DNA of 64,000 nucleotides, taken from contig OY969811.1 of NCBI GenBank assembly GCA_963703315.1, forward strand, positions 2,464,001 to 2,528,000. Direction: 5' to 3'. The notes under the pieces are model-generated. The model was not told where the DNA came from, did no database searches, and worked only from the letters and a program-made list of their open reading frames with translations. This DNA is from an uncultured cyanobacterium. GTDB lineage: Bacteria > Cyanobacteriota > Cyanobacteriia > Pseudanabaenales > Pseudanabaenaceae. The position numbers and the translations under genes were made by a program. Within the stretch, counting starts at the first letter, position 1; every line of letters begins with the position of its first letter. This document shows positions 1 through 13,315 of this stretch, piece after piece.

Positions 1-3000
1 CCTGAAACTGATAATAATCATCGGAATCGAGAATGTCATGCTCACGGTTATCTTGATTTTGCAGCACGATTTGCATATTGCCAAGGCGTTGATTAAAGGC
101 TTCAGGAGCCGATTTTCCTTCAGATTTGCTGGTGTAGGCGTAGGCACTCCAATTGATATAGGCACGGGCTAGATCCTGCTCACTCTCCCAGTTTTGCGAC
201 TCGATCAAGCCCTGCAAACCTGCACCATAGGCACTCGGCTTCGAGCCAAATACCCGATAACGCGATCGCTCTTGGGCTTGTTCTAAAGTTAATCCTTCTC
301 TTTGCCATTGTGCGGATTCTGCTTGGACTTTTGCCGCTAAGGGATTCTGATCGGCAGATTCATCAAGATTCGCAACCGCATTCACCGCACTATCAAATAG
401 ATCGATCAAATTTGGGAACGCATCTCGAAAGAATCCCGAAATCCTCAAGGTGACATCGATACGAGGACGACCGAGGATTGATAAAGGCAAAATCTCAAAA
501 TCCACCACTCGCCGCGATACGCCATCCCAAACAGGTTGCACTCCCAGTAAAGCCAGAGCTTCGGCTAGGTCATCACCTCCCGTTCGCATTGTGGAGGTTC
601 CCCAAATAGATAGCCCTAGGGTTTGCGGATATTCGCCATGTTCTTGGGTATAGGTTTCGATCAGCACATCCGCAGCCTTGCGCCCAATATCCCAAGCGGT
701 TTCCGTCGGTACGGCGCGAATATCTACAGAATAGAAATTGCGTCCTGTAGGTAATACTTCAGGTCTGCCCCTTGTCGGCGCACCCGATGCACCACTAGGC
801 ACATATTCGCCATTGAGTCCACGCAGGAGATTGGTGATTTCTTGATTGGTTTTGTAGAGAGATGGTAAAAGGCGATCGCGAATCCATGTTAGTTCTTTTG
901 GGATTGCAAGACCCTCATCCCCCAGCCCCTTCTCCCATGAAGGGAGAAGGGGAGCAAGATTTTTCCTGTCCCCCTCTCCCCCTTTGGGAGAGGGGCTAGG
1001 GGTGAGGGTATCCACCAAATCCGCCGCATATTCCTCTATAACTTCAACGGCATCGCCAATAATCCGACAATTCGCTAAGCGTGGATGCGAACTTGGCGCA
1101 AGCAACTCCCCTAAATCCGCAGTCAAGGGATCAAAATCTAATTGCCAATCCTGCGCGATCGCCCTAGTCAGTCCCAAACGATTAGCCGTAGGATTGCGGG
1201 CGATCGCTACTACTAAATCCCTTAACTGTCTCCCTTCTGGACATTGCCCGAAAATATGCAACCCGTCGCGAATTTGTGCTTCTTTAATTTCGCAGAGATA
1301 ACCATCGGCTGTCGTGAGAATTGTATTCAGCGAATCCTCTAAACGGTCTAAGGAAATCCCTAAATCATGATAGAGATTTTCCTGTTTGATGGTTTCTATG
1401 AGGCGATCGCGAATCATCCCTAAACGCGAAGGATCTAAAGTTTCTGCTTCGTAATATTCATCGATTAAGCCTTCCAATTGCTGCAAACCACCATACAACT
1501 CGGCGCGAGTCATTGGTGGCGTAAGATGATCGAGAATTACTGCTTGCGATCGCCTTTTTGCTTGAGAGCCTTCGCCGGGGTCGTTGACAATAAAGGGATA
1601 GAAATGGGGCATTGCTCCAAAAGCAGCTTCAGGATAGCAATTTTCTGATAGAGCTACACTTTTTCCGGGAAGCCATTCGAGATTGCCATGTTTGCCGATA
1701 TGGGCGATCGCATGGGCGTTAAACTTGTCGCGCACCCAATGATAGAAAGCCATATAGTCATGGGTCGGTTCTAAATCTGGCGCGTGATAATTGAGGGTAG
1801 GATCAAGGTCATAGCCCCGTGATGGCTGAATACCGACAAAAATATTCCCGAATTGAATGCCAGCGATCGCAAATTCTGTTTCACATTTTGGCTGATTCCA
1901 TCTTGACTGAATTCCATTTTGGACAGGTTCAGGCAAATTCTGAAAATAGTTTTGATAATCTTCTAGCGCTAAAGATTGATTAACTTGACGCAATCCAAAG
2001 GATTCGCGATCGTTAGTCACGCCTTTAGTTAACAACTTCATCAGTTCATCGCTAGTTTCAGGAATCTCACCAACGCTATAGCCCGAACTTCGCAAAGCTT
2101 TGAGAATCTCTAAACAACTAGCTGGCGTATCTAAGCCGACTCCATTGGCTAATCTGCCATCACGATTGGGATAGTTAGCGAGGATTAGAGCTATTTTGCG
2201 ATCGCACACCTCTGTATGCTTTAGCTGTATCCATTTAGCCGCCAGATCCGCCACAAAATTAATGCGCGATCGCACAGGTTCATAGGTCAATACTTCCGTT
2301 TGTAAAGCTAGATTCTGTCCCTGCATCGCTTTAAACGAAACAGCCCTCGTGATAATCCTGCCATCGACTTCAGGCAACACCACATTCATCGCCATATCGC
2401 GAGGATTGAGTCCTTGCGTACCATTTGCCCAAGTTTTCTTCAGTCCACCACTAAAAATCACCTGAAAGACTGGCACATTCAAAGCTTCCCATAGATCCAC
2501 TTGTGGTGTATCCGTTTTTAAACTCGCTAAAGAGAAGCTAGTCGTATTTAAAATCACATCGACTTTTTGACCAGATTCAGGTAAGCAATAGCGAATTAAT
2601 TCCGCTTGGACATCAGGTTCTTTTAATGATGAAACATAGATGGGTAAAGGCTCTAAATTGCGATCGCGCAAGGCTTCACATAAAGCAGCGATCGCCGCCG
2701 TATTCCCAGATAAATAATGAGCGCGATAAAAAAGAATCGCCACTCGCTCTCCCGATGGGAGAGGGGGCTGGGGGGTGAGGGTCTCATAAATTCCAATCCG
2801 AGGCACTGGTTGCGGAAGTTTATATTCAGACGCGACATCTAAAAATTCTTTAGCAACAAACTTCAATAGATTTTGATAGTTATTAACTCCCGCTTCGATG
2901 AAATATTGCCAAGCTTGATTTACTAAAGTTAGTGAGGTCGTAGAATGGCTAGTCAAACTAGGATCAGGACGCTCATCCCCCGGTAATACGATTAAGACCG

Positions 3001-6661: not shown

Positions 6662-6691
6662 AAAAAAGCACCCCGCAAGGGGTGCTTTTTT
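6662..6691. terminator. Bidirectional intrinsic terminator
   Basis: AAAAAAGCACCCC-GCAA-GGGGTGCTTTTTT between convergent hemF and the Uma2 gene. Confidence 0.85.
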
Positions 6692-7433
6692 ATTGGTTGG
6701 GGTCGATGCCTTGCGATCGCAAAATTGCCTCTAATCGATCTGCTCTTTGGTTTGCCTTTTCCTTAGCTAAGCGTTCCTGCTCCTCTGGCAATGGAATAAG
6801 TTCACCATCAGCATTAAAATAGCGCAATTGTCTCTCATGGATACCTAGATACAAATGTAATTGATCACTCCATAGATAGCCATTCTCATTAGGGGCGATC
6901 GCCTGATATAAACCATCAACTAAATGGAATCCAGCAAACTCTAATGTCTCTGGATGAAACCAAAAGTAATTAGGCACGCGCCAAATATCTTGATAGAGTT
7001 GTTTTTTTGCACCGCGATCCACTTTAGCTGTCGAATTAGATAATAATTCAATTACTAAATTTGGATACTTGCCATCCTCATCCCAAACTACCCAACTACG
7101 GCGATCGCGTTTCTCTGTACCCATCACCACGAAGATATCTGGTCCCGCGAAGTTTCGTGACTTGAGTTGCTTTTTGTTGTAATAAACCGTCAAGTTGCCA
7201 GAGATATAAAAGTCGGGGCGATCGCGCCAGAAGTATTCTAAAAGACGAATTAATAGGTCAATCTGGCGGCGGTGAAAGTCTGTTTCCAATTGTGGTTCAT
7301 CACTATATAAATTTGTGGGCAGTAGCTGAATTTCATCAATAACATCATCAATCAACTCTTCCCTGATTTCATTATTGATGGTTGTTTCGCTAACAGATGG
7401 TGGATTGACATTCAGTAGAACCATTGCTAGCAC
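6690..7433 (-). CDS. Uma2 family (DUF820) PD-(D/E)XK endonuclease-like protein
   Basis: SDEPQLETDFH, FAGPDIFVV, PNLVIELLSNSTAKVDRGAKKQLY; C-terminal coiled tail ending LRSQGIDP typical of cyanobacterial Uma2. Exact start uncertain. Confidence 0.9.
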   Translation of the reverse strand: MLAMVLLNVNPPSVSETTINNEIREELIDDVIDEIQLLPTNLYSDEPQLETDFHRRQIDLLIRLLEYFWRDRPDFYISGNLTVYYNKKQLKSRNFAGPDIFVVMGTEKRDRRSWVVWDEDGKYPNLVIELLSNSTAKVDRGAKKQLYQDIWRVPNYFWFHPETLEFAGFHLVDGLYQAIAPNENGYLWSDQLHLYLGIHERQLRYFNADGELIPLPEEQERLAKEKANQRADRLEAILRSQGIDPNQ

Positions 7434-7592
7434 TCCATTACAAAAGTAACTTTAGTATAAGCCTAAATTTCGTTTTTAGGTGCGTATTCAGATTGTGAGT
7501 AGATAAGGTACTTTATTTCGCTTATTGAAAGTAATGATATAAATTAGCGATCGCTATATCAAACAATTATTTAACTACATCTATTTTCAAAG

Positions 7593-7994
7593 CTACCAAA
7601 TTGTCTGAATATTTGATAAGTTTCTGATTTTATGGTCTTTTGTAACTAGAGGCAGACCGAGGTATAGAGAAGTTGCAGCAATAATGCGATCGCCCATTTC
7701 TGGAACAATATCACGCGGAATTTGGGTAAAAGCTTTGGCTACTGGGGTATCTAATGGGACAACAACTAATTTTACAAGTGGATCGTCTATGAGTTGTAAA
7801 AGTTGCTCTAGAGAACTTGTGGGAATCCGATTTTTCTCAACTAAATAATTCATTTCTACAAGAGAAATGGCAGATATAAAAATTGATTCGCCATTGTTTA
7901 AGGCATTATCAAGGGAGGTTAATGCATTTGTTGATAATTTTTCTGGGCTTCGCAGATACCAAATAATTGTGTGGGTGTCAGCTACAACGCTCAT
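7593..7994 (-). CDS. PIN-domain VapC-type toxin
   Basis: 133 aa; VVADTHTIIWYL, SAISLVE, DRIIAATSL, LVTKD acidic PIN motifs; start overlaps the antitoxin stop. Confidence 0.88.
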   Translation of the reverse strand: MSVVADTHTIIWYLRSPEKLSTNALTSLDNALNNGESIFISAISLVEMNYLVEKNRIPTSSLEQLLQLIDDPLVKLVVVPLDTPVAKAFTQIPRDIVPEMGDRIIAATSLYLGLPLVTKDHKIRNLSNIQTIW

Positions 7995-8230
7995 AGTTCA
8001 ATATCCTTGGGGAAGTTTGCCCACATTTCTTTTCTGTTTGTAGAAAGTTCTTCTTCGGTGAGGTTAATATCTGCATTTGCCCATAAGCCTTTGATGCTTT
8101 TACTTGGATTTTTAGGTGTTGTCTTAGCTTGCAAAAATTCGGCAAACTCTAACAGTGCTTGCTGTTTTTCGGTTGGTAGGGTTTTGATGACTGCGATTAA
8201 GGTTTCTTCGATTTTAGGTAATGTTTGCAT
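7991..8230 (-). CDS. Putative antitoxin (DUF2281-like)
   Basis: 79 aa; LPTEKQQALLEFAEFL...KGLWA; 4-bp overlap with the downstream PIN gene. Confidence 0.75.
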   Translation of the reverse strand: MQTLPKIEETLIAVIKTLPTEKQQALLEFAEFLQAKTTPKNPSKSIKGLWANADINLTEEELSTNRKEMWANFPKDIEL

Positions 8231-8277
8231 GATTTTGACTCCATTAGATTGTTAGATGACAACAAAAACAGTTCTCT

Positions 8278-11200
8278 TCATTCGTTTTTCTTAACCCGTT
8301 TTTTCTTCTCGACTTTGAGCAATGGCGCACTTAGGGCTTCATAGAGGCTAAATAAATACTCGATGCGGTTTAGTTCGCTAACAAAGGGCTGGGGACGATA
8401 GCAAAGGTCTACGGCTTTGTCTAGGGTTTGATGTGCTTTTACCAAGTCGGGCGGCATGGTAAGAGGATCATAAAGATCGGCGAGGCTGGATCTGACCTCC
8501 CCCTGCCCCTCCTTGCAAGGAGGGGAGTTAGACTCTAGCTCTTGTCTTCCGCTTAGCGAAAGTTTTTCTTGTTCCCCTCCTTGCAAGGAGGGGCTAGGGG
8601 AGGTGTATTTCTCGCGCACCGCCAAAACCAACCGCGCCGCATCTTCCACTTTTTGTTTTTGTTTGTCGCTTGCGTTTTCAGGGAATGGATAGTTGTTGTA
8701 AACGATAGTATTGGAATAGCGAAAACGACTTTCTAATCTTCCACAAACGTACTTAACCCAAGTCATGTGCATTTCAGAAGTGAGAACACCAAATAGATAA
8801 AAGCTAGAATCAGCAATAAAAGAGCAAAGATTGCTTGGCACTATAGTCTTATCAATAAATCCAAAAGGTACATATTTCCTATTCTCTGATGAAACTAATG
8901 GGACGATAATTGCGGAATCTGGATTATGCTTATCTCTGAAAGTTGTAGGATAGTCGGCTAAAAAGCGAGCTTGCTTATCAGGGCTTGCTAATCGTAGCTG
9001 TCTTACATTTTCAATCCTCTTCATCACCAAAGGCATTTTCTTTAATTCCTGTGGCTGTGCGTTAACTAGCCAAAGACACCATCGACTTTTGCCGTTGATA
9101 AACTCTTCTGAACCAATGAATTGCTTAAAATACTTAGCTGATAAAGGCTCTTCTTGAATAAATTGATATTTCTCTTGATCGGTAAAAATCAAGTTTCCAC
9201 CATCTATAGCCTTATTCCCAGCTAACATTGATGGGACATTACAAATCGGCTTAGTTCTTTTCAAAATCACTAAATCATTACCTTCAGTTAGATATGGATT
9301 AATATTTCTAACCTTTCTCTGTGTGGGTTCACCCTTAATATTTAGATAATCAAAGATTCTCTTATTTTCAACATCCTGCAAACCGAAGCCAATAATTACA
9401 CAATGCACAGCAGCATTAGCTTTAGCTTCATTACTCCAACTAAAAGTACGATGAGCAAAATGAATTTTAATCTTGTATTTATTGTAAAGCTCTTGCCAGA
9501 GAATCCCAACTTGTTCACCTTGAGAAATAGAACTCGTACTAACAAAAGCACATTTGACCTCCCCTAGCCCCTCCTTGGAAGGAGGGGAACAAGAATTTAG
9601 ATATTGAGCAGCTTTCAAGTACCAAGCGCAAACATAATCTAGTACACCAGCCCCATTTACCCCAGCAAAAATCATCTCCATATCTGACTTTTGCTCAACA
9701 CTTTGCAGATGCTTCCCTACAAAAGGCGGATTACCCAAAATATAATCAAATAATCCCCCACGTAACTCTTTCTCTTGTCCCCCTCCTTCCAAGGAGGGGC
9801 TAGGGGAGGTTCTTAAATGTTCCCTAATATCCTCCAGCACCCCATCTAAATTCTCGAAAATTAAATTGTTGGCATATCGCAAAACCGTAATCCCAACACC
9901 GCACAAAAATTCATCTCTAATCGCATCATATTCTTGACCCTCCTTCGTAAAATGTTGCCCGCCATCCAACTCGATCGCTAAATTAGCACTCGGACAAAAG
10001 AAATCCAAAATGTAATTACCAATCGAATGCTGTCTTCTAAACTTAAATCCATGCAATTGTTTGCCCTGCAATGCTTTCCACAAAGCCACCTCCGCAGGAG
10101 TTGCATTATTTCGCAACTCTCGTCGAAAATCTTTCTTACTTGCAAGATTACTAATCGCCTTATAAGGAACTTGATCGCCTAAATCTTCTTTTCCTCCTTT
10201 CAAGGAGGGGCTAGGGGAGGTCATACCCCTTTCTCCTTTCAAAGAAAAACTAGAAGAAGTTGTAGAGAACTTTGGAACCACCCCTAACCCCTCCTTTGAA
10301 GGAGGGGAACAAGATCTCCAATCAATCCGCAACGAATTACCATGCACAATCTTCGCCGACTTCTTCAACGGCAACCGCACAAAATACTGCCCAAACTCAT
10401 TACTCACCTTCACATTCATCTGATGGTCGATCAACCACATCGCCACCTCAGCAACCCGCACCGCAAACTCATCATACTCAATCCCCGCAAACTGATCCAC
10501 ATCCACCTGAATAAACAACCGCACATCCAGAAAACTCTTGTGCTTTCTGTACAACTCCTTTAAAATTTCAAGCTCTAAATCTCGCAACTCCCGATAAGTA
10601 ATAATCAAGAAATTGCCACAACCACAAGCAGGATCGAGAAAATGCAAATTTGCAATCTTTTCATGTAACTCCTCTAGCTTGCCCTTACTCCCCTTCGCTT
10701 TCTCAAACTCAACATACAAATCATCCAAAAAAAGCGGTCTAATCAACTTTTGAATATTCTTCTCAGAAGTATAATGCGCCCCCAAATTTCGCCGTTCCGT
10801 CTGATTCATCACCGCCTGAAACATCGACCCAAAAATTGCAGGCGAAATCTTACCCCAATCAAACGCACAAGCTTTTAACAATATTTCACGCATCCCACTG
10901 TCAAACGACGCAGGCTGCAAAGGCTCCGCAAATAGCTTCCCATTCACATAGGGAAACTGTGTCAGATTCTCATCTAAATTTTTTAATCGCCGATCAGGTG
11001 GCGTATTCAATACATGAAAAATCGAAGCAATATGCATCGCCAAATCGCTACCATCTTCCTTAGTATGGCGATCGACATATTCCCAGAAAATCCCCTTATT
11101 AAAAATGCTCGTATCATCGGCAAACAGACAAAATAACAGCCGTACCAGATAGACCTCTAAATCATGCCCACTATAGCCAATCTCCTTGAGGCGATCGTGC

Positions 11201-11700
11201 AGTTCCCCCATCAATTCCGCAGCTTTAATATTGACAGGATCTTCATCCTTATAAACCCGTTTCTCATATCCCGCCATAAAGCCGAATAGATGCACATGGT
11301 CTACAAAACCCTTTAGCTCAAACTCTTTAGTCTCATCCGTATCCAAATCATAGAGTCTGAATTTCTGAAAATCCGACACCAAAATATACTTGGGTAACTC
11401 ATGCTCCTTTAAATTAGGGAAATAATCCTTAGCCTGTTGTGTCGCCTTGTCCAAGTCCTTGCCCCTAGACTTATGCTCCACCAAAATCGTCCCCTTCCAC
11501 AGCAAATCAATAAACCCCTGTTTGTTATCCGCCTTTTTAATCGGTAGCTCAAAACTCCCCACCCGCCGCCGTGAAATGCCAAACACATTAAAAAAATCAT
11601 TCCAAAAAGATTGAGACTCTGACTTCTCTGAAGTTTCACTTTCCCACTCCTTAGAAAAGGCGATCGCTCTTTGCTTAATCTCATTCCAACTTAGCGGCAT
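8278..11700 (-). CDS. MmeI-like type IIL restriction-modification enzyme (endonuclease + N6-adenine MTase + specificity domain) with in-frame insertions
   Basis: N-terminus MPLSWNEIKQRAIAF...GFIDLLWKGTILVEHKSRGKDL resembles MmeI; GAHYTSEKNI, motif I LDPACGCGNFL, motif IV GNPPF, C-terminal SLADLYDPLTMPPDLVKAHQTLDKAVD. Confidence 0.92.
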   Translation of the reverse strand: MPLSWNEIKQRAIAFSKEWESETSEKSESQSFWNDFFNVFGISRRRVGSFELPIKKADNKQGFIDLLWKGTILVEHKSRGKDLDKATQQAKDYFPNLKEHELPKYILVSDFQKFRLYDLDTDETKEFELKGFVDHVHLFGFMAGYEKRVYKDEDPVNIKAAELMGELHDRLKEIGYSGHDLEVYLVRLLFCLFADDTSIFNKGIFWEYVDRHTKEDGSDLAMHIASIFHVLNTPPDRRLKNLDENLTQFPYVNGKLFAEPLQPASFDSGMREILLKACAFDWGKISPAIFGSMFQAVMNQTERRNLGAHYTSEKNIQKLIRPLFLDDLYVEFEKAKGSKGKLEELHEKIANLHFLDPACGCGNFLIITYRELRDLELEILKELYRKHKSFLDVRLFIQVDVDQFAGIEYDEFAVRVAEVAMWLIDHQMNVKVSNEFGQYFVRLPLKKSAKIVHGNSLRIDWRSCSPPSKEGLGVVPKFSTTSSSFSLKGERGMTSPSPSLKGGKEDLGDQVPYKAISNLASKKDFRRELRNNATPAEVALWKALQGKQLHGFKFRRQHSIGNYILDFFCPSANLAIELDGGQHFTKEGQEYDAIRDEFLCGVGITVLRYANNLIFENLDGVLEDIREHLRTSPSPSLEGGGQEKELRGGLFDYILGNPPFVGKHLQSVEQKSDMEMIFAGVNGAGVLDYVCAWYLKAAQYLNSCSPPSKEGLGEVKCAFVSTSSISQGEQVGILWQELYNKYKIKIHFAHRTFSWSNEAKANAAVHCVIIGFGLQDVENKRIFDYLNIKGEPTQRKVRNINPYLTEGNDLVILKRTKPICNVPSMLAGNKAIDGGNLIFTDQEKYQFIQEEPLSAKYFKQFIGSEEFINGKSRWCLWLVNAQPQELKKMPLVMKRIENVRQLRLASPDKQARFLADYPTTFRDKHNPDSAIIVPLVSSENRKYVPFGFIDKTIVPSNLCSFIADSSFYLFGVLTSEMHMTWVKYVCGRLESRFRYSNTIVYNNYPFPENASDKQKQKVEDAARLVLAVREKYTSPSPSLQGGEQEKLSLSGRQELESNSPPCKEGQGEVRSSLADLYDPLTMPPDLVKAHQTLDKAVDLCYRPQPFVSELNRIEYLFSLYEALSAPLLKVEKKKRVKKNE
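8495..8604. repeat. Inverted pair of 38-bp palindromic repeats, in frame in the RM gene
   Basis: ACCTCCCCCTGCCCCTCCTTGCAAGGAGGGGAGTTAGA (8495-8532) and TCTTGTTCCCCTCCTTGCAAGGAGGGGCTAGGGGAGGT (8567-8604). Confidence 0.9.
9557..9594 (+). repeat. 38-bp palindromic repeat, single in-frame copy
   Basis: ACCTCCCCTAGCCCCTCCTTGGAAGGAGGGGAACAAGA; encodes SCSPPSKEGLGEV on the coding strand. Confidence 0.9.
9773..10314 (-). mobile_element. Repeat-flanked DUF559 (Vsr-like) endonuclease cassette inserted in frame in the MTase domain
   Basis: RRELRNNATPAEVALWKALQGKQLHGFKFRRQHSIGNYILDFFCPSANLAIELDGGQH...DAIRDEFLCGVGITVLRYAN is a typical DUF559 domain. Repeat copies lie at 9773-9810, 10191-10221, 10230-10260 (degenerate) and 10277-10314. 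The block sits between LRIDW and FDYILGNPPF. Mobility is inferred. Confidence 0.7.
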
Positions 11701-11913: not shown

Positions 11914-12141
11914 ATGCTACTACAACGCATCACCATAGACTGGAATATCTGTCATGGTAAACCCTGCATCAGAGGTTTGCGATATCCAGTCGAGATGATC
12001 TTAGAACTCCTCAGTTCAGGCATGACCACCGAAGAAATACTAGAAGACTATGAAGATCTAGAGCGAGATGATATTTTTGCAGTCCTAGCCTATGCCACAA
12101 AACTTAGCCAAGTAAAAAGCATCCACAAGGTTCTCGCATGA
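11914..12141 (+). CDS. DUF433 family putative antitoxin
   Basis: 75 aa; ICHGKPCIRGLRYPVEMILELLSSGMTTEEILEDYEDL; ATGA overlap with the next gene. Confidence 0.88.
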   Translation: MLLQRITIDWNICHGKPCIRGLRYPVEMILELLSSGMTTEEILEDYEDLERDDIFAVLAYATKLSQVKSIHKVLA

Positions 12142-12491
12142 AATTTCTCATTGATGCTCAATTACCCGTGCGATTATCCCATCTTTTAAAATCAATGGGA
12201 CATGATGCAATCCATACCAAAGAATTAGCCCTCAAAAATGCCACACCAGACACGGAAATTAATACACTCTCAATTTGTGAACAGAGAATTGTCATTACCA
12301 AAGATTCTGATTTTTGGGATTCTTTTTATGTTAGTCAAGAACCTTATAAACTTCTGCTAGTGACCACAGGAAATATTAGCAACAAAGAATTAGAATCTTT
12401 GTTTGTTAAAAATTTAGAACAATTAGTTAATTTGCTAGAGCAACATTATTTGATTGAAATGTCACGAGATTCAGTCATCGTTCATCAGTAA
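12138..12491 (+). CDS. DUF5615 family PIN-like protein (putative toxin)
   Basis: 117 aa; MKFLIDAQLP, GHDAIH, RIVITKDSDF. Confidence 0.86.
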   Translation: MKFLIDAQLPVRLSHLLKSMGHDAIHTKELALKNATPDTEINTLSICEQRIVITKDSDFWDSFYVSQEPYKLLLVTTGNISNKELESLFVKNLEQLVNLLEQHYLIEMSRDSVIVHQ

Positions 12492-12819: not shown

Positions 12820-13315
12820 TTGTACTCGATACCCATATTTGGTTTTGGCTAATCAACTCAGACTTTGATCGATTTCCCACATCTTGGCTAGAGCGCTTTG
12901 AGTTAGCCGAGATATTAGCGATATCTCCTCTATTTGGTTTTGGCTAATCAACTCAGACTTTGATCGATTTCCCACATCTTGGCTAGAGCGCTTTGAGTTA
13001 GCCGAGATATTAGCGGTATCTCCTCTATCTTGCTATGAGATTGCCTTAGCCCAAAGTCGAGGTAGATTAGAACTAACCTGTTCATCCGAAGAGTGGTTTA
13101 GCAGAGCATTAGCGCCTGCCAAAATTGAACTATTTCCACTAACTCCCGCAATTACAGTCAGAGCCGTAAACCTATCACCCATCCACAAAGATCCCTTCGA
13201 TCGCCTAATCATTGCCACTGCCTTAGAATATGGCGCAAAACTTGCCAGTGTTGACAGCCTATTTTCTAAATATCCTGAATTAGAAAATCATCTCATCGTA
13301 TCGTCCATAGGATAA
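12807..13315 (+). pseudogene. VapC-type PIN toxin frameshifted by a 95-bp tandem duplication
   Basis: MSEIIVLDTHIWFWL... stops at TAA 12945-12947. Removing one 95-bp copy restores a 137-aa PIN protein with SCYEIA, HKDPFDRLIIATA and LASVD. Confidence 0.88.

What the first reader, a model, noticed from the sequence alone, without database searches (positions are those of the whole stretch)
9773..10314. DUF559 endonuclease cassette flanked by its own palindromic repeats, embedded in frame in an MmeI-like RM enzyme
Seen: about 180 extra codons lie between LRIDW and the catalytic FDYILGNPPF. They contain a complete DUF559/Vsr-like nuclease domain with an intact ILDF..IELDGGQH core. Direct copies of a 38-bp hairpin repeat (core CCCCTCCTT-NN-AAGGAGGGG) bracket it and both read TSPSPSL in the same frame, so recombination between them would remove the domain without a frameshift. 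Established: MmeI-family enzymes normally have only a short linker here. Inference: this is the autonomous member of a repeat-plus-nuclease mobile system, analogous to RAYT/REP but with a PD-(D/E)XK-type enzyme, which hides inside host proteins by staying in frame rather than by protein splicing.
Basis: partly seen in the sequence, partly recalled or inferred. Interest (0 to 1): 0.85.

Follow-up and report, generated by a model that had tools for sequence, protein, structure and literature searches.

The report
Triplex-repeat nuclease cassette inside MmeI gene
A predicted DNA-cutting domain sits in frame inside a cyanobacterial restriction-enzyme gene between two inverted copies of a long-unexplained repeat of the triple-helix (BoxC) type, and the same pairing recurs across bacteria, so this nuclease family is likely the missing enzyme that maintains and spreads those repeats.

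Summary
Observation largely confirmed, mechanism revised. A 181-codon in-frame insert with an intact DUF559/YcjD nuclease domain interrupts an MmeI-like gene; close orthologues are empty (103 of 120 hits). The flanking repeats are not simple hairpins: a hairpin plus a mirror 'third strand' makes them BoxC/PIT/TM intrastrand-triplex motifs (Holder 2015, no mobiliser found). The cassette ends are an inverted pair, not direct copies; no excision footprint was found. Such motifs lie within 300 nt of 186 of 203 DUF559 loci from several phyla, including E. coli ycjD (controls: 0 of 17 Uma2 genes; 1.5% of random windows). Special here: all six copies of this repeat subtype in the genome lie inside this one gene, four more than the ends; their stems are conserved at silent sites (30/34 vs 10/38); the nuclease is under purifying selection (dN/dS 0.07); its relatives in Acidobacteria carry the same repeat core, dispersed genome-wide. 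Related repeats sit in frame in about 15 housekeeping genes and swap subtype at fixed sites. Likely mechanism: nick at the folded repeat, then copying by recombination; activity is unshown. The pairing was not found in print, but this scan noted it before on other DNA (19 findings).

The parts
8278..11700 (-). MmeI-like type IIL restriction-modification gene, 1140 aa, host of the cassette; SAM motif FLDPACGCG (aa 354) and catalytic NPPF (aa 657-660) intact
9751..10317 (-). In-frame insert at site A (567 nt) replacing about 8 linker codons of the empty allele; no target-site duplication visible
9814..10137 (-). DUF559/YcjD Vsr-like (EDxHD-type) nuclease domain, aa 522-629; 50% identical to E. 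coli YcjD; dN/dS 0.07 among 11 filled alleles
10277..10314 (-). Triplex motif A1 (upstream cassette end; hairpin CCCCTCCTT-CA-AAGGAGGGG, loop TTA, third strand GGGGTGGT); reads SCSPPSKEGLGVV
10184..10221 (+). Degenerate triplex motif A2, inside the cassette, direct copy of A3; reads TSPSPSLKGG
9773..9810 (+). Triplex motif A3 (downstream cassette end, inverted relative to A1); reads TSPSPSLEGG
9557..9594 (-). Satellite triplex motif at site B, net +9 codons in the methyltransferase core; present in 16 of 17 DUF559-bearing and 0 of 103 DUF559-less homologues
8495..8604 (.). Satellite doublet at site C (two triplex motifs, tails outward, folding as one long hairpin, z -8.8), net +36 codons just after the target-recognition domain; present in 9, absent in 5, not assessable in 3 of 17 filled homologues, 0 of 103 empty ones
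912..1008 (.). Nuclease-less doublet of another subtype (CCCCTCTCCC/CCCCTTCTCCC) in frame inside cobN; the orthologous site holds different repeat subtypes in other Pseudanabaena

Best explanation
The insert is one member of a widespread cassette in which a DUF559/YcjD Vsr-like domain, predicted to be an active nuclease, lies between inverted BoxC/TM-type repeats that likely fold into intrastrand triplexes, and the nuclease is likely the cognate enzyme of those repeats. Shown: the anatomy, the cross-phylum linkage, the triplex base rule, purifying selection on both enzyme and repeat stems, and empty alleles. Inferred mechanism: when the DNA is single-stranded (replication or transcription) the repeat folds; the enzyme nicks at or beside the folded motif; repair by homologous or ectopic recombination copies, swaps or expands repeats and at times copies the enzyme gene with them. 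No splicing is used: insertions survive where they stay in frame in a tolerant surface loop and are translated as part of the host protein. In this lineage the cassette likely arrived inside a foreign block of the MmeI gene (site A to site C) and now spreads among Pseudanabaena alleles by recombination through the shared N- and C-terminal flanks, acting at most locally.
For: Triplex rule: opposite A the tail has A or T in 171 of 172 cases and opposite G it has G in 256 of 263 (87 non-redundant elements selected only on hairpin and first three G); same class as TM(ECO), shown by CD/NMR to form a triplex (PMC4666352). Linkage: motif within 300 nt in 151 of 203 DUF559 loci (strict) plus 35 of the remaining 52 (long-loop variant); density 2.4-3.6/kb near vs 0-0.2/kb beyond 600 nt; 0 of 17 Uma2 genes and 1.5% of random windows in this genome; both full-length DUF559 of this genome are flanked, the weak helicase-type hit is not. 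Pseudomonadota: >=2 TM-A cores in 14 of 17 DUF559+ vs 5 of 63 DUF559- genomes. E. coli ycjD has a TM 192 nt downstream in K-12 and at its stop codon in strain PKF4. Cognate pairing: subtype clusters on the DUF559 tree (36 changes vs 86 shuffled); the nearest relatives from Acidobacteriota and Bacteroidota share the core CCCCTCCTT..AGGAGGGG/GGGGTGGT, which is dispersed in 30 and 36 copies in two Chloracidobacterium genomes with free-standing genes. Function retained: dN/dS 0.07 vs 0.05-0.13 host and 0.43 linker; four-fold sites in repeat stems invariant 30 of 34 vs 10 of 38 in host codons, loops not homogenised (p 0.38). Movement: filled and empty alleles interleave on the N-terminal tree (10 changes, at least 6 forced); filled-specific sites are confined to the A-C block; orthologous cobN and mnmE loops hold A+A2, A+A, B+B, single, expanded and decayed repeats; no target-site duplication.
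Against: No nuclease or mobility assay exists for any DUF559 cassette. The subtype has not spread outside this gene in Pseudanabaenaceae and was found in only 2 of 151 cyanobacterial genomes. Two E. coli chromosomes without any DUF559 still hold 13 and 6 TMs (vs 23 and 11 in two ycjD+ ones); 5 of 63 DUF559-less Pseudomonadota genomes hold several. G000 has CCCCCTT-type motifs but no DUF559 of that clade. One cobN site holds an unrelated repeat (L421), so fixed-site turnover may be repeated independent insertion into a tolerant loop rather than conversion. Tree clustering and co-occurrence are inflated by kinship; gene and flanks may simply be inherited together. In vivo footprinting found no stable triplex at a TM(ECO) site (PMC4666352). 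Stem conservation could partly be template-switch repair of palindromes (established mechanism, recalled).
Confidence: 0.5

Rival explanations
1. Domesticated partner: DUF559 is cognate to the repeats but serves the host (clearing folded triplexes that stall forks, or binding nearby motifs to regulate itself); the repeats spread by replication errors or another enzyme.
For: Strong purifying selection on enzyme and stems; often single-copy and free-standing at a fixed place, as ycjD in 3375 of 5426 E. coli genomes; RAYTs are vertically kept in this way (10.1101/2021.07.10.451892); PIT elements block polymerase in vitro (as cited in PMC4666352).
Against: Cassettes sit in many unrelated loops of unrelated proteins, up to 8 copies per genome, patchy in distribution (18 of 81 Pseudomonadota); here the enzyme is kept although its subtype exists only in its own gene.
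Confidence: 0.22
2. Passenger: the nuclease gene is cargo between two repeat ends that are moved by some other, unlinked recombinase, as in a composite transposon.
For: Repeats persist without DUF559; nuclease-less doublets are the commonest form in this genome.
Against: Cargo should vary, but in the loci examined it is DUF559 that is flanked in 186 of 203 cases, with fixed orientation; other small nucleases are not (0 of 17); no transposase was found beside TM(ECO) (PMC4666352). I did not survey what else lies between repeat pairs genome-wide.
Confidence: 0.13
3. Splicing-free homing endonuclease: the domain cuts the empty MmeI allele at site A and is copied in by gap repair; the repeats are incidental.
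For: Closest solved relatives are 3hrl and the homing endonuclease I-Bth0305I; filled alleles are frequent (15 of about 29 alleles in the family) and carry a linked block.
Against: No extra DNA-binding domain (I-Bth0305I has NUMOD/HTH, PMC3239194); the same enzyme clade occurs free-standing and in a Type ISP gene (L320) where no common target exists except the repeat; empty site-A linkers are diverse.
Confidence: 0.1
4. One reading: direct repeats let the domain be excised in frame by recombination, giving a reversible switch.
For: A2 and A3 are in-frame direct copies 411 nt apart.
Against: 0 of 103 DUF559-less homologues carry any insert of 6 aa or more; A2 is degenerate here and absent in some filled alleles (L011); the one skip seen in an RNA library carries the empty-allele linker, letters that the window lacks, so it is another allele.
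Confidence: 0.05

Closest known systems
BoxC / PIT / TM(ECO) intrastrand triplex repeats (Holder et al. 2015, PMC4666352)
   Same: Pyrimidine stem - loop - purine stem - 3-nt loop (TTA/CTA) - mirror third strand; class II purine-motif triplex; inverted doublets; abundant in cyanobacteria; E. coli ycjD lies beside TM number 9.
   Different: Other stem sequence (CCCCTCCTT); lies in frame in coding sequence, whereas TM(ECO) is always intergenic in K-12; tied to a nuclease gene, whereas that paper found no mobility function near TMs (the words nuclease and ycj do not occur in its main text).
RAYT/REP (REPIN) systems
   Same: One small enzyme gene flanked by inverted palindromic repeats; dispersed enzyme-less doublets with conserved ends and variable spacer; repeat subtype follows enzyme lineage.
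   Different: PD-(D/E)XK Vsr-like fold, not an HUH tyrosine transposase; no GTAG/CGTC tag; triplex tail; several copies per genome, horizontal jumps and in-frame fusion, whereas RAYTs are single-copy, extragenic and vertical.
EDxHD homing endonucleases (I-Bth0305I) and Vsr
   Same: Same fold and acidic/His active-site pattern (Foldseek 3hrl E 9e-9, 3r3p E 6e-4, 1vsr E 0.08).
   Different: No intron or intein, no NUMOD/HTH domain, no cognate Dcm methylase; bounded by triplex repeats.
Rickettsia palindromic elements and intragenic REPs (as reviewed in PMC3733652)
   Same: Palindromic repeats inserted in frame in housekeeping proteins, sometimes twice in one gene.
   Different: Those carry no enzyme; here a nuclease-bearing form exists and the repeat is a triplex motif.
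MmeI family type IIL enzymes (PDB 5hr4)
   Same: Host protein: full domain set, modular exchange of the target-recognition domain (47-53% vs 93-97% identity blocks).
   Different: Three inserts (181, 9 and 36 codons) absent from MmeI and from 103 empty homologues.

Membership tests
BoxC/PIT/TM intrastrand triplex motifs | Y stem - loop - R stem - loop - mirror strand obeying G.G-C and A/T.A-T triads, stem 6-15 nt, loops 1-6 nt | tested here: met
   Five intact copies give 8-9 triads; base rule 171/172 and 256/263
BoxC/PIT/TM intrastrand triplex motifs | Exact TM(ECO) consensus CCCTCNCCC-N3-6-GGGNGAGGG-N3-GGGNGAGGG | tested here: not met
   The cassette's subtype is CCCCTCCTT-NN-AAGGAGGGG-NNN-GGGGWGGT; the second cassette of this genome and the dispersed family do fit TM(ECO) closely
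BoxC/PIT/TM intrastrand triplex motifs | Physical triplex formation (CD, NMR) | not testable with these tools
   ViennaRNA shows only the hairpin; shown for TM(ECO) in PMC4666352
DUF559/YcjD (PF04480) | Score above family cut-off over the full model, conserved catalytic residues | tested here: met
   112.9 bits vs 20.6; ten invariant residues present; below the NCBIfam YcjD equivalog cut-off (86 vs 218)
RAYT/REPIN | HUH motif tyrosine transposase (Y1_Tnp) | tested here: not met
   No such Pfam hit; fold is Vsr-like
RAYT/REPIN | Enzyme gene flanked by inverted repeats; dispersed inverted doublets | tested here: met
RAYT/REPIN | Single-copy, extragenic, vertically inherited enzyme | tested here: not met
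   Up to 8 copies per genome, in-frame fusions, window domain nests among Bacteroidota/Acidobacteriota proteins
Intein or self-splicing intron with homing endonuclease | Hint domain and splice-junction residues, or group I/II intron RNA | tested here: not met
   No Hint family in Pfam; no Rfam match in L114 and 11 other loci; insert ends ...RGGL
EDxHD homing endonucleases | N-terminal NUMOD/HTH DNA-binding region and cleavage of the empty allele | tested here: inconclusive
   No binding domain in the insert; cleavage not testable
Insertion sequence / MITE | Transposase and target-site duplication | tested here: not met
   No transposase domain; sites A, B, C replace 6-24 nt of linker with no duplication, though the events are old
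MmeI type IIL RM enzymes | MmeI_N, hel, Mtase, TRD, C domains with motifs I and IV | tested here: met
MmeI type IIL RM enzymes | Methylation and cleavage activity of the fused protein | not testable with these tools
   Host domains under purifying selection; full-length model unusable (pLDDT 52)

The most novel reading that the evidence does not exclude
DUF559/YcjD proteins are structure-specific nucleases that read an intrastrand DNA triplex, and with BoxC/TM repeats they form an undescribed class of selfish elements that needs neither transposase nor splicing: nicking at folded repeats drives copying and swapping of repeats between sites, seeds protein loops with new peptides, and carries the enzyme gene into housekeeping and restriction genes.
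Probability: 0.45. Interest if true: 0.92.

Novelty: categorically new. Interest (0 to 1): 0.8.

Why it matters
BoxC repeats have been known in E. coli since the 1990s and linked to genome instability without any partner enzyme; YcjD is an uncharacterised E. coli protein. The pairing makes a 30-year question testable in K-12 with one small protein and a 35-mer. If the enzyme reads a triplex, it would be a natural triplex-specific nuclease and evidence that such structures form in cells. The in-frame doublets in cobN, mnmE, menE, priA and mfd show a route by which new loops enter essential proteins, and this allele, whose repeat subtype exists only inside its own gene, isolates action in cis.

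Tried and rejected
Direct-repeat excision: no footprint allele, no joint. RNA splicing: the two RNA-library contig sets held mostly empty alleles; contigs cannot show splicing, so this stays open; small-share runs were not used for habitat. Idea that coding copies occur only in DUF559 fusion genes: wrong, 38 of 106 motifs of this genome lie in long ORFs. Idea that sites B and C bracket and drive TRD shuffling: rejected, swap boundaries lie about 45-115 codons away and empty alleles swap too; the G212 deletion does not abut a repeat. Concerted evolution among copies: no signal in loops. Satellites without the nuclease in metagenomes: uninformative, the MmeI contigs without DUF559 (L260/261, L357) end before site A. 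Full-length AlphaFold model: too poor to place the inserts. Trees for the mid and TRD segments did not finish. Rfam: nothing. Weak hits beyond rank 4 (E > 0.04) are chance. Elhai 2008 (small dispersed repeats of cyanobacteria, recalled) is not held, so overlap with its families is unchecked; Caulobacter CIR is named only in a table of PMC3184786, so identity of the long-loop variant with CIR is recalled, not tested. One pattern search in G224 gave 0 because its tail differs by one base.

Full report
Observation. The window encodes a 1140-aa MmeI-like enzyme at 8278-11700 (-). HIP1 sites and the named homologues place the genome in or near Pseudanabaena (inference). Of the 120 best homologues listed, 17 (the window included) carry DUF559 and 103 do not; empty ones reach 96-99% identity in the N-terminal half. 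At DNA level the stretch between DW and ILGNPPF is 576 nt here, 474-678 nt in 12 other filled alleles and 33 nt in 12 empty ones; 5 of 30 loci were not assessable. The insert holds PF04480 at aa 522-629 with all ten residues that are invariant in 76 aligned domains, 50% identical to E. coli YcjD. A confident model of the domain (pLDDT 86) matches 3hrl, then the homing endonuclease I-Bth0305I, then Vsr.

The repeat. A genome scan found six copies of the core CCCCTCCTT-NN-AAGGAGGGG, all inside this gene; a looser 38-mer scan added only two distant relatives of other subtypes. Each intact copy is followed by a 3-nt loop and a mirror of the purine arm. Across 87 non-redundant elements chosen on hairpin and first three G only, the tail has A or T opposite A in 171 of 172 cases and G opposite G in 256 of 263: the rule of a purine-motif intrastrand triplex. 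This is the BoxC/PIT/TM class of Holder et al. 2015 (PMC4666352; I read the abstract, parts 1, 3, 5 and 6 of 10 and keyword passages, not the supplements), who showed triplex folding in vitro, found TM(ECO) always intergenic in K-12, saw no protection in vivo, and found no mobility gene beside it. Their supplementary table of flanking genes may list ycjD; I did not see it. The cassette's ends (10277-10314 and 9773-9810) are inverted; the direct copy 10184-10221 is internal and degenerate.

The link with DUF559 is general. I wrote a triplex scanner (thresholds set after seeing the motif) and ran it on 203 DUF559 loci: 79 chosen by likeness to the window's domain, 90 of the 150 listed places in a cyanobacterial-phylum sample (30 given by the tool, 60 picked by me from the strongest hits outside family f24), 30 of 40 places in a Pseudomonadota sample, two of this genome and two of E. 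coli. 151 have a motif within 300 nt; 35 of the other 52 have a variant whose second loop is itself a hairpin. Density falls from 2.4-3.6 per kb near the gene to 0-0.2 beyond 600 nt. Controls in this genome: 0 of 17 Uma2-like genes, 1.5% of random windows, and a third MmeI-like gene with neither DUF559 nor motif. The second full-length DUF559 of this genome sits in another MmeI-like gene at another site, flanked by six motifs of the dispersed subtype. Around free-standing genes the orientation is fixed (upstream + 77 vs 12; downstream - 76 vs 15; 145 loci); around 22 internal fusions it is mixed. Fused hosts include PriA, GHMP kinase, urocanase, M14 peptidase, RecO, HsdR, HsdM, Type ISP, Eco57I-like and MmeI-like enzymes. 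In 80 Pseudomonadota genomes besides the centre, at least two TM-A cores occur in 14 of 17 with and 5 of 63 without DUF559 (kin are not independent, and flanking copies count). E. coli ycjD has a TM beside it; the block is present in 3375 of 5426 genomes. Against strict dependence: two ycjD-less chromosomes keep 13 and 6 TMs.

Cognate pairing. Repeat subtype clusters on a 201-row tree of the domain (36 changes, shuffled mean 86; few columns, kinship inflates this). The window's domain nests among Bacteroidota, Acidobacteriota and Limnohabitans proteins; four acidobacterial loci and one Emticicia locus carry the same core with a long second loop, and in two Chloracidobacterium genomes that core is dispersed in 30 and 36 copies (3, 8 and 2 in the three other genomes tested). 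In Pseudanabaenaceae, by contrast, 71 of 72 copies in 16 of 71 genomes lie in the filled MmeI gene, and only 2 of 151 cyanobacterial genomes have the subtype. So this cassette is an import that has not seeded its host genomes.

What this allele adds. Satellite copies lie in frame at site B (16 of 17 filled, 0 of 103 empty homologues) and site C (9 present, 5 absent, 3 not assessable; 0 of 103). These are inherited copies of few events, not independent ones. Among 11 filled alleles with about 0.3 synonymous differences per site, DUF559 has dN/dS 0.07 (host 0.05-0.13, linker 0.43), and four-fold sites in repeat stems are invariant in 30 of 34 cases against 10 of 38, 5 of 22 and 7 of 27 in protein-coding controls, while loops vary, even non-synonymously, and are not homogenised within alleles. 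The repeats are thus kept as DNA, next to their enzyme. A Type ISP gene in a metagenome contig shows the same enzyme clade, subtype and an in-frame satellite 924 nt away (L320). Filled and empty alleles interleave on the N-terminal tree (10 changes, at least 6 forced; 50 of 120 proteins), and filled-specific sites lie between sites A and C: the block moves between backbones. That region is also hypervariable among empty alleles, so ordinary recombination suffices and drive is not shown.

Turnover at fixed sites. 38 of 106 motifs in this genome lie in long ORFs; 15 host genes were examined, including cobN (window 912-1008), mnmE, menE, priA, mfd, cobB and cobG. In the 30 best-matching cobN loci of the genus the same loop holds A+A2, A+A, A2+A, B+B, triple, single, decayed and one unrelated repeat; mnmE shows the same in 30 loci. 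This fits nick-and-convert turnover, but also repeated insertion into tolerant loops.

Mechanism and rivals. I commit to a cognate, structure-reading nickase whose cuts are repaired by recombination (0.5); domestication (0.22), passenger (0.13), splicing-free homing (0.10) and direct-repeat excision (0.05) remain. That enzyme and repeat belong together I put at about 0.95. It works like RAYT/REPIN (10.1101/2021.07.10.451892, abstract and section 4) but fails membership, as it does for inteins, introns and IS elements.

Novelty. Searches for 'DUF559' (25 papers), 'DUF559 + repeat + palindrom' (3), 'ycjD' (13), 'intrastrand triplex + bacteria + repeat' (20) and BoxC/ycjD/triplex/endonuclease (listing of 30) showed no title or abstract start that links the two; passages were read in PMC3424549, PMC1189080, PMC3239194, PMC3184786 and PMC3733652. 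The library lacks most subscription papers. This scan has noted the same cassette class on other DNA (19 findings in at least 18 genomes); I had reached the reading before looking (note 1), and those notes are not evidence. None was returned for this gene's relatives or for satellite copies.

Noticed in passing
window 912-1008 (cobN, ORF on - strand): In-frame triplex-motif doublet adding about 30 residues to CobN; the orthologous loop holds different repeat families across Pseudanabaena, once an unrelated GTAG-like repeat (L421).
   Followed up: yes
G000:C1:1658381-1661872 (L002): Second MmeI-like gene with a different DUF559 cassette at the helicase-spacer/MTase junction, six TM-A motifs in frame and a doublet just after its stop.
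   Followed up: partly
G000, loci L241-L255: About 15 genes (RqcH-like, menE, mnmE, priA, mfd, cobB, cobG, oxoprolinase, UvrD-like helicase, kinases, long repeat proteins) carry in-frame triplex-motif inserts, like Rickettsia palindromic elements.
   Followed up: partly
L007/L122 (G208; protein P0012): A filled allele with E-to-K in the IELDG motif, decayed repeats and a truncated host frame: joint decay in a broken gene.
   Followed up: no
L123/L010 (G212): Filled allele with a deletion of about 640 nt inside the target-recognition domain, frame apparently kept.
   Followed up: partly
L084: GHMP-kinase (IspE-like) ORF carrying two separate DUF559 domains.
   Followed up: no
L216, L222, L225, L234, L239, L024, L027, L028: Variant repeats in which the loop before the third strand is itself a hairpin; probably the CIR/RIME-like repeats of Alphaproteobacteria (recalled, not tested).
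   Followed up: partly
L004:1740-1920 (E. coli K-12, after ycjD): A decayed motif at the ycjD stop, then a partial duplicate of the ycjD 3' end, then the intact TM; ycjD is replaced by an efflux locus in other strains.
   Followed up: partly
window 12836-13000: Exact 70-nt direct repeat, 95 nt apart.
   Followed up: no
window 6690-8255 and 12138-12491: The MmeI gene lies among a Uma2 nuclease, a PIN-domain toxin-antitoxin pair and a DUF5615 (Mut7-C/PIN-like) gene: a small defence-like island.
   Followed up: no
L379-L392: 14 viral-contig loci hold this repeat subtype, none with DUF559 within the fetched flanks.
   Followed up: partly
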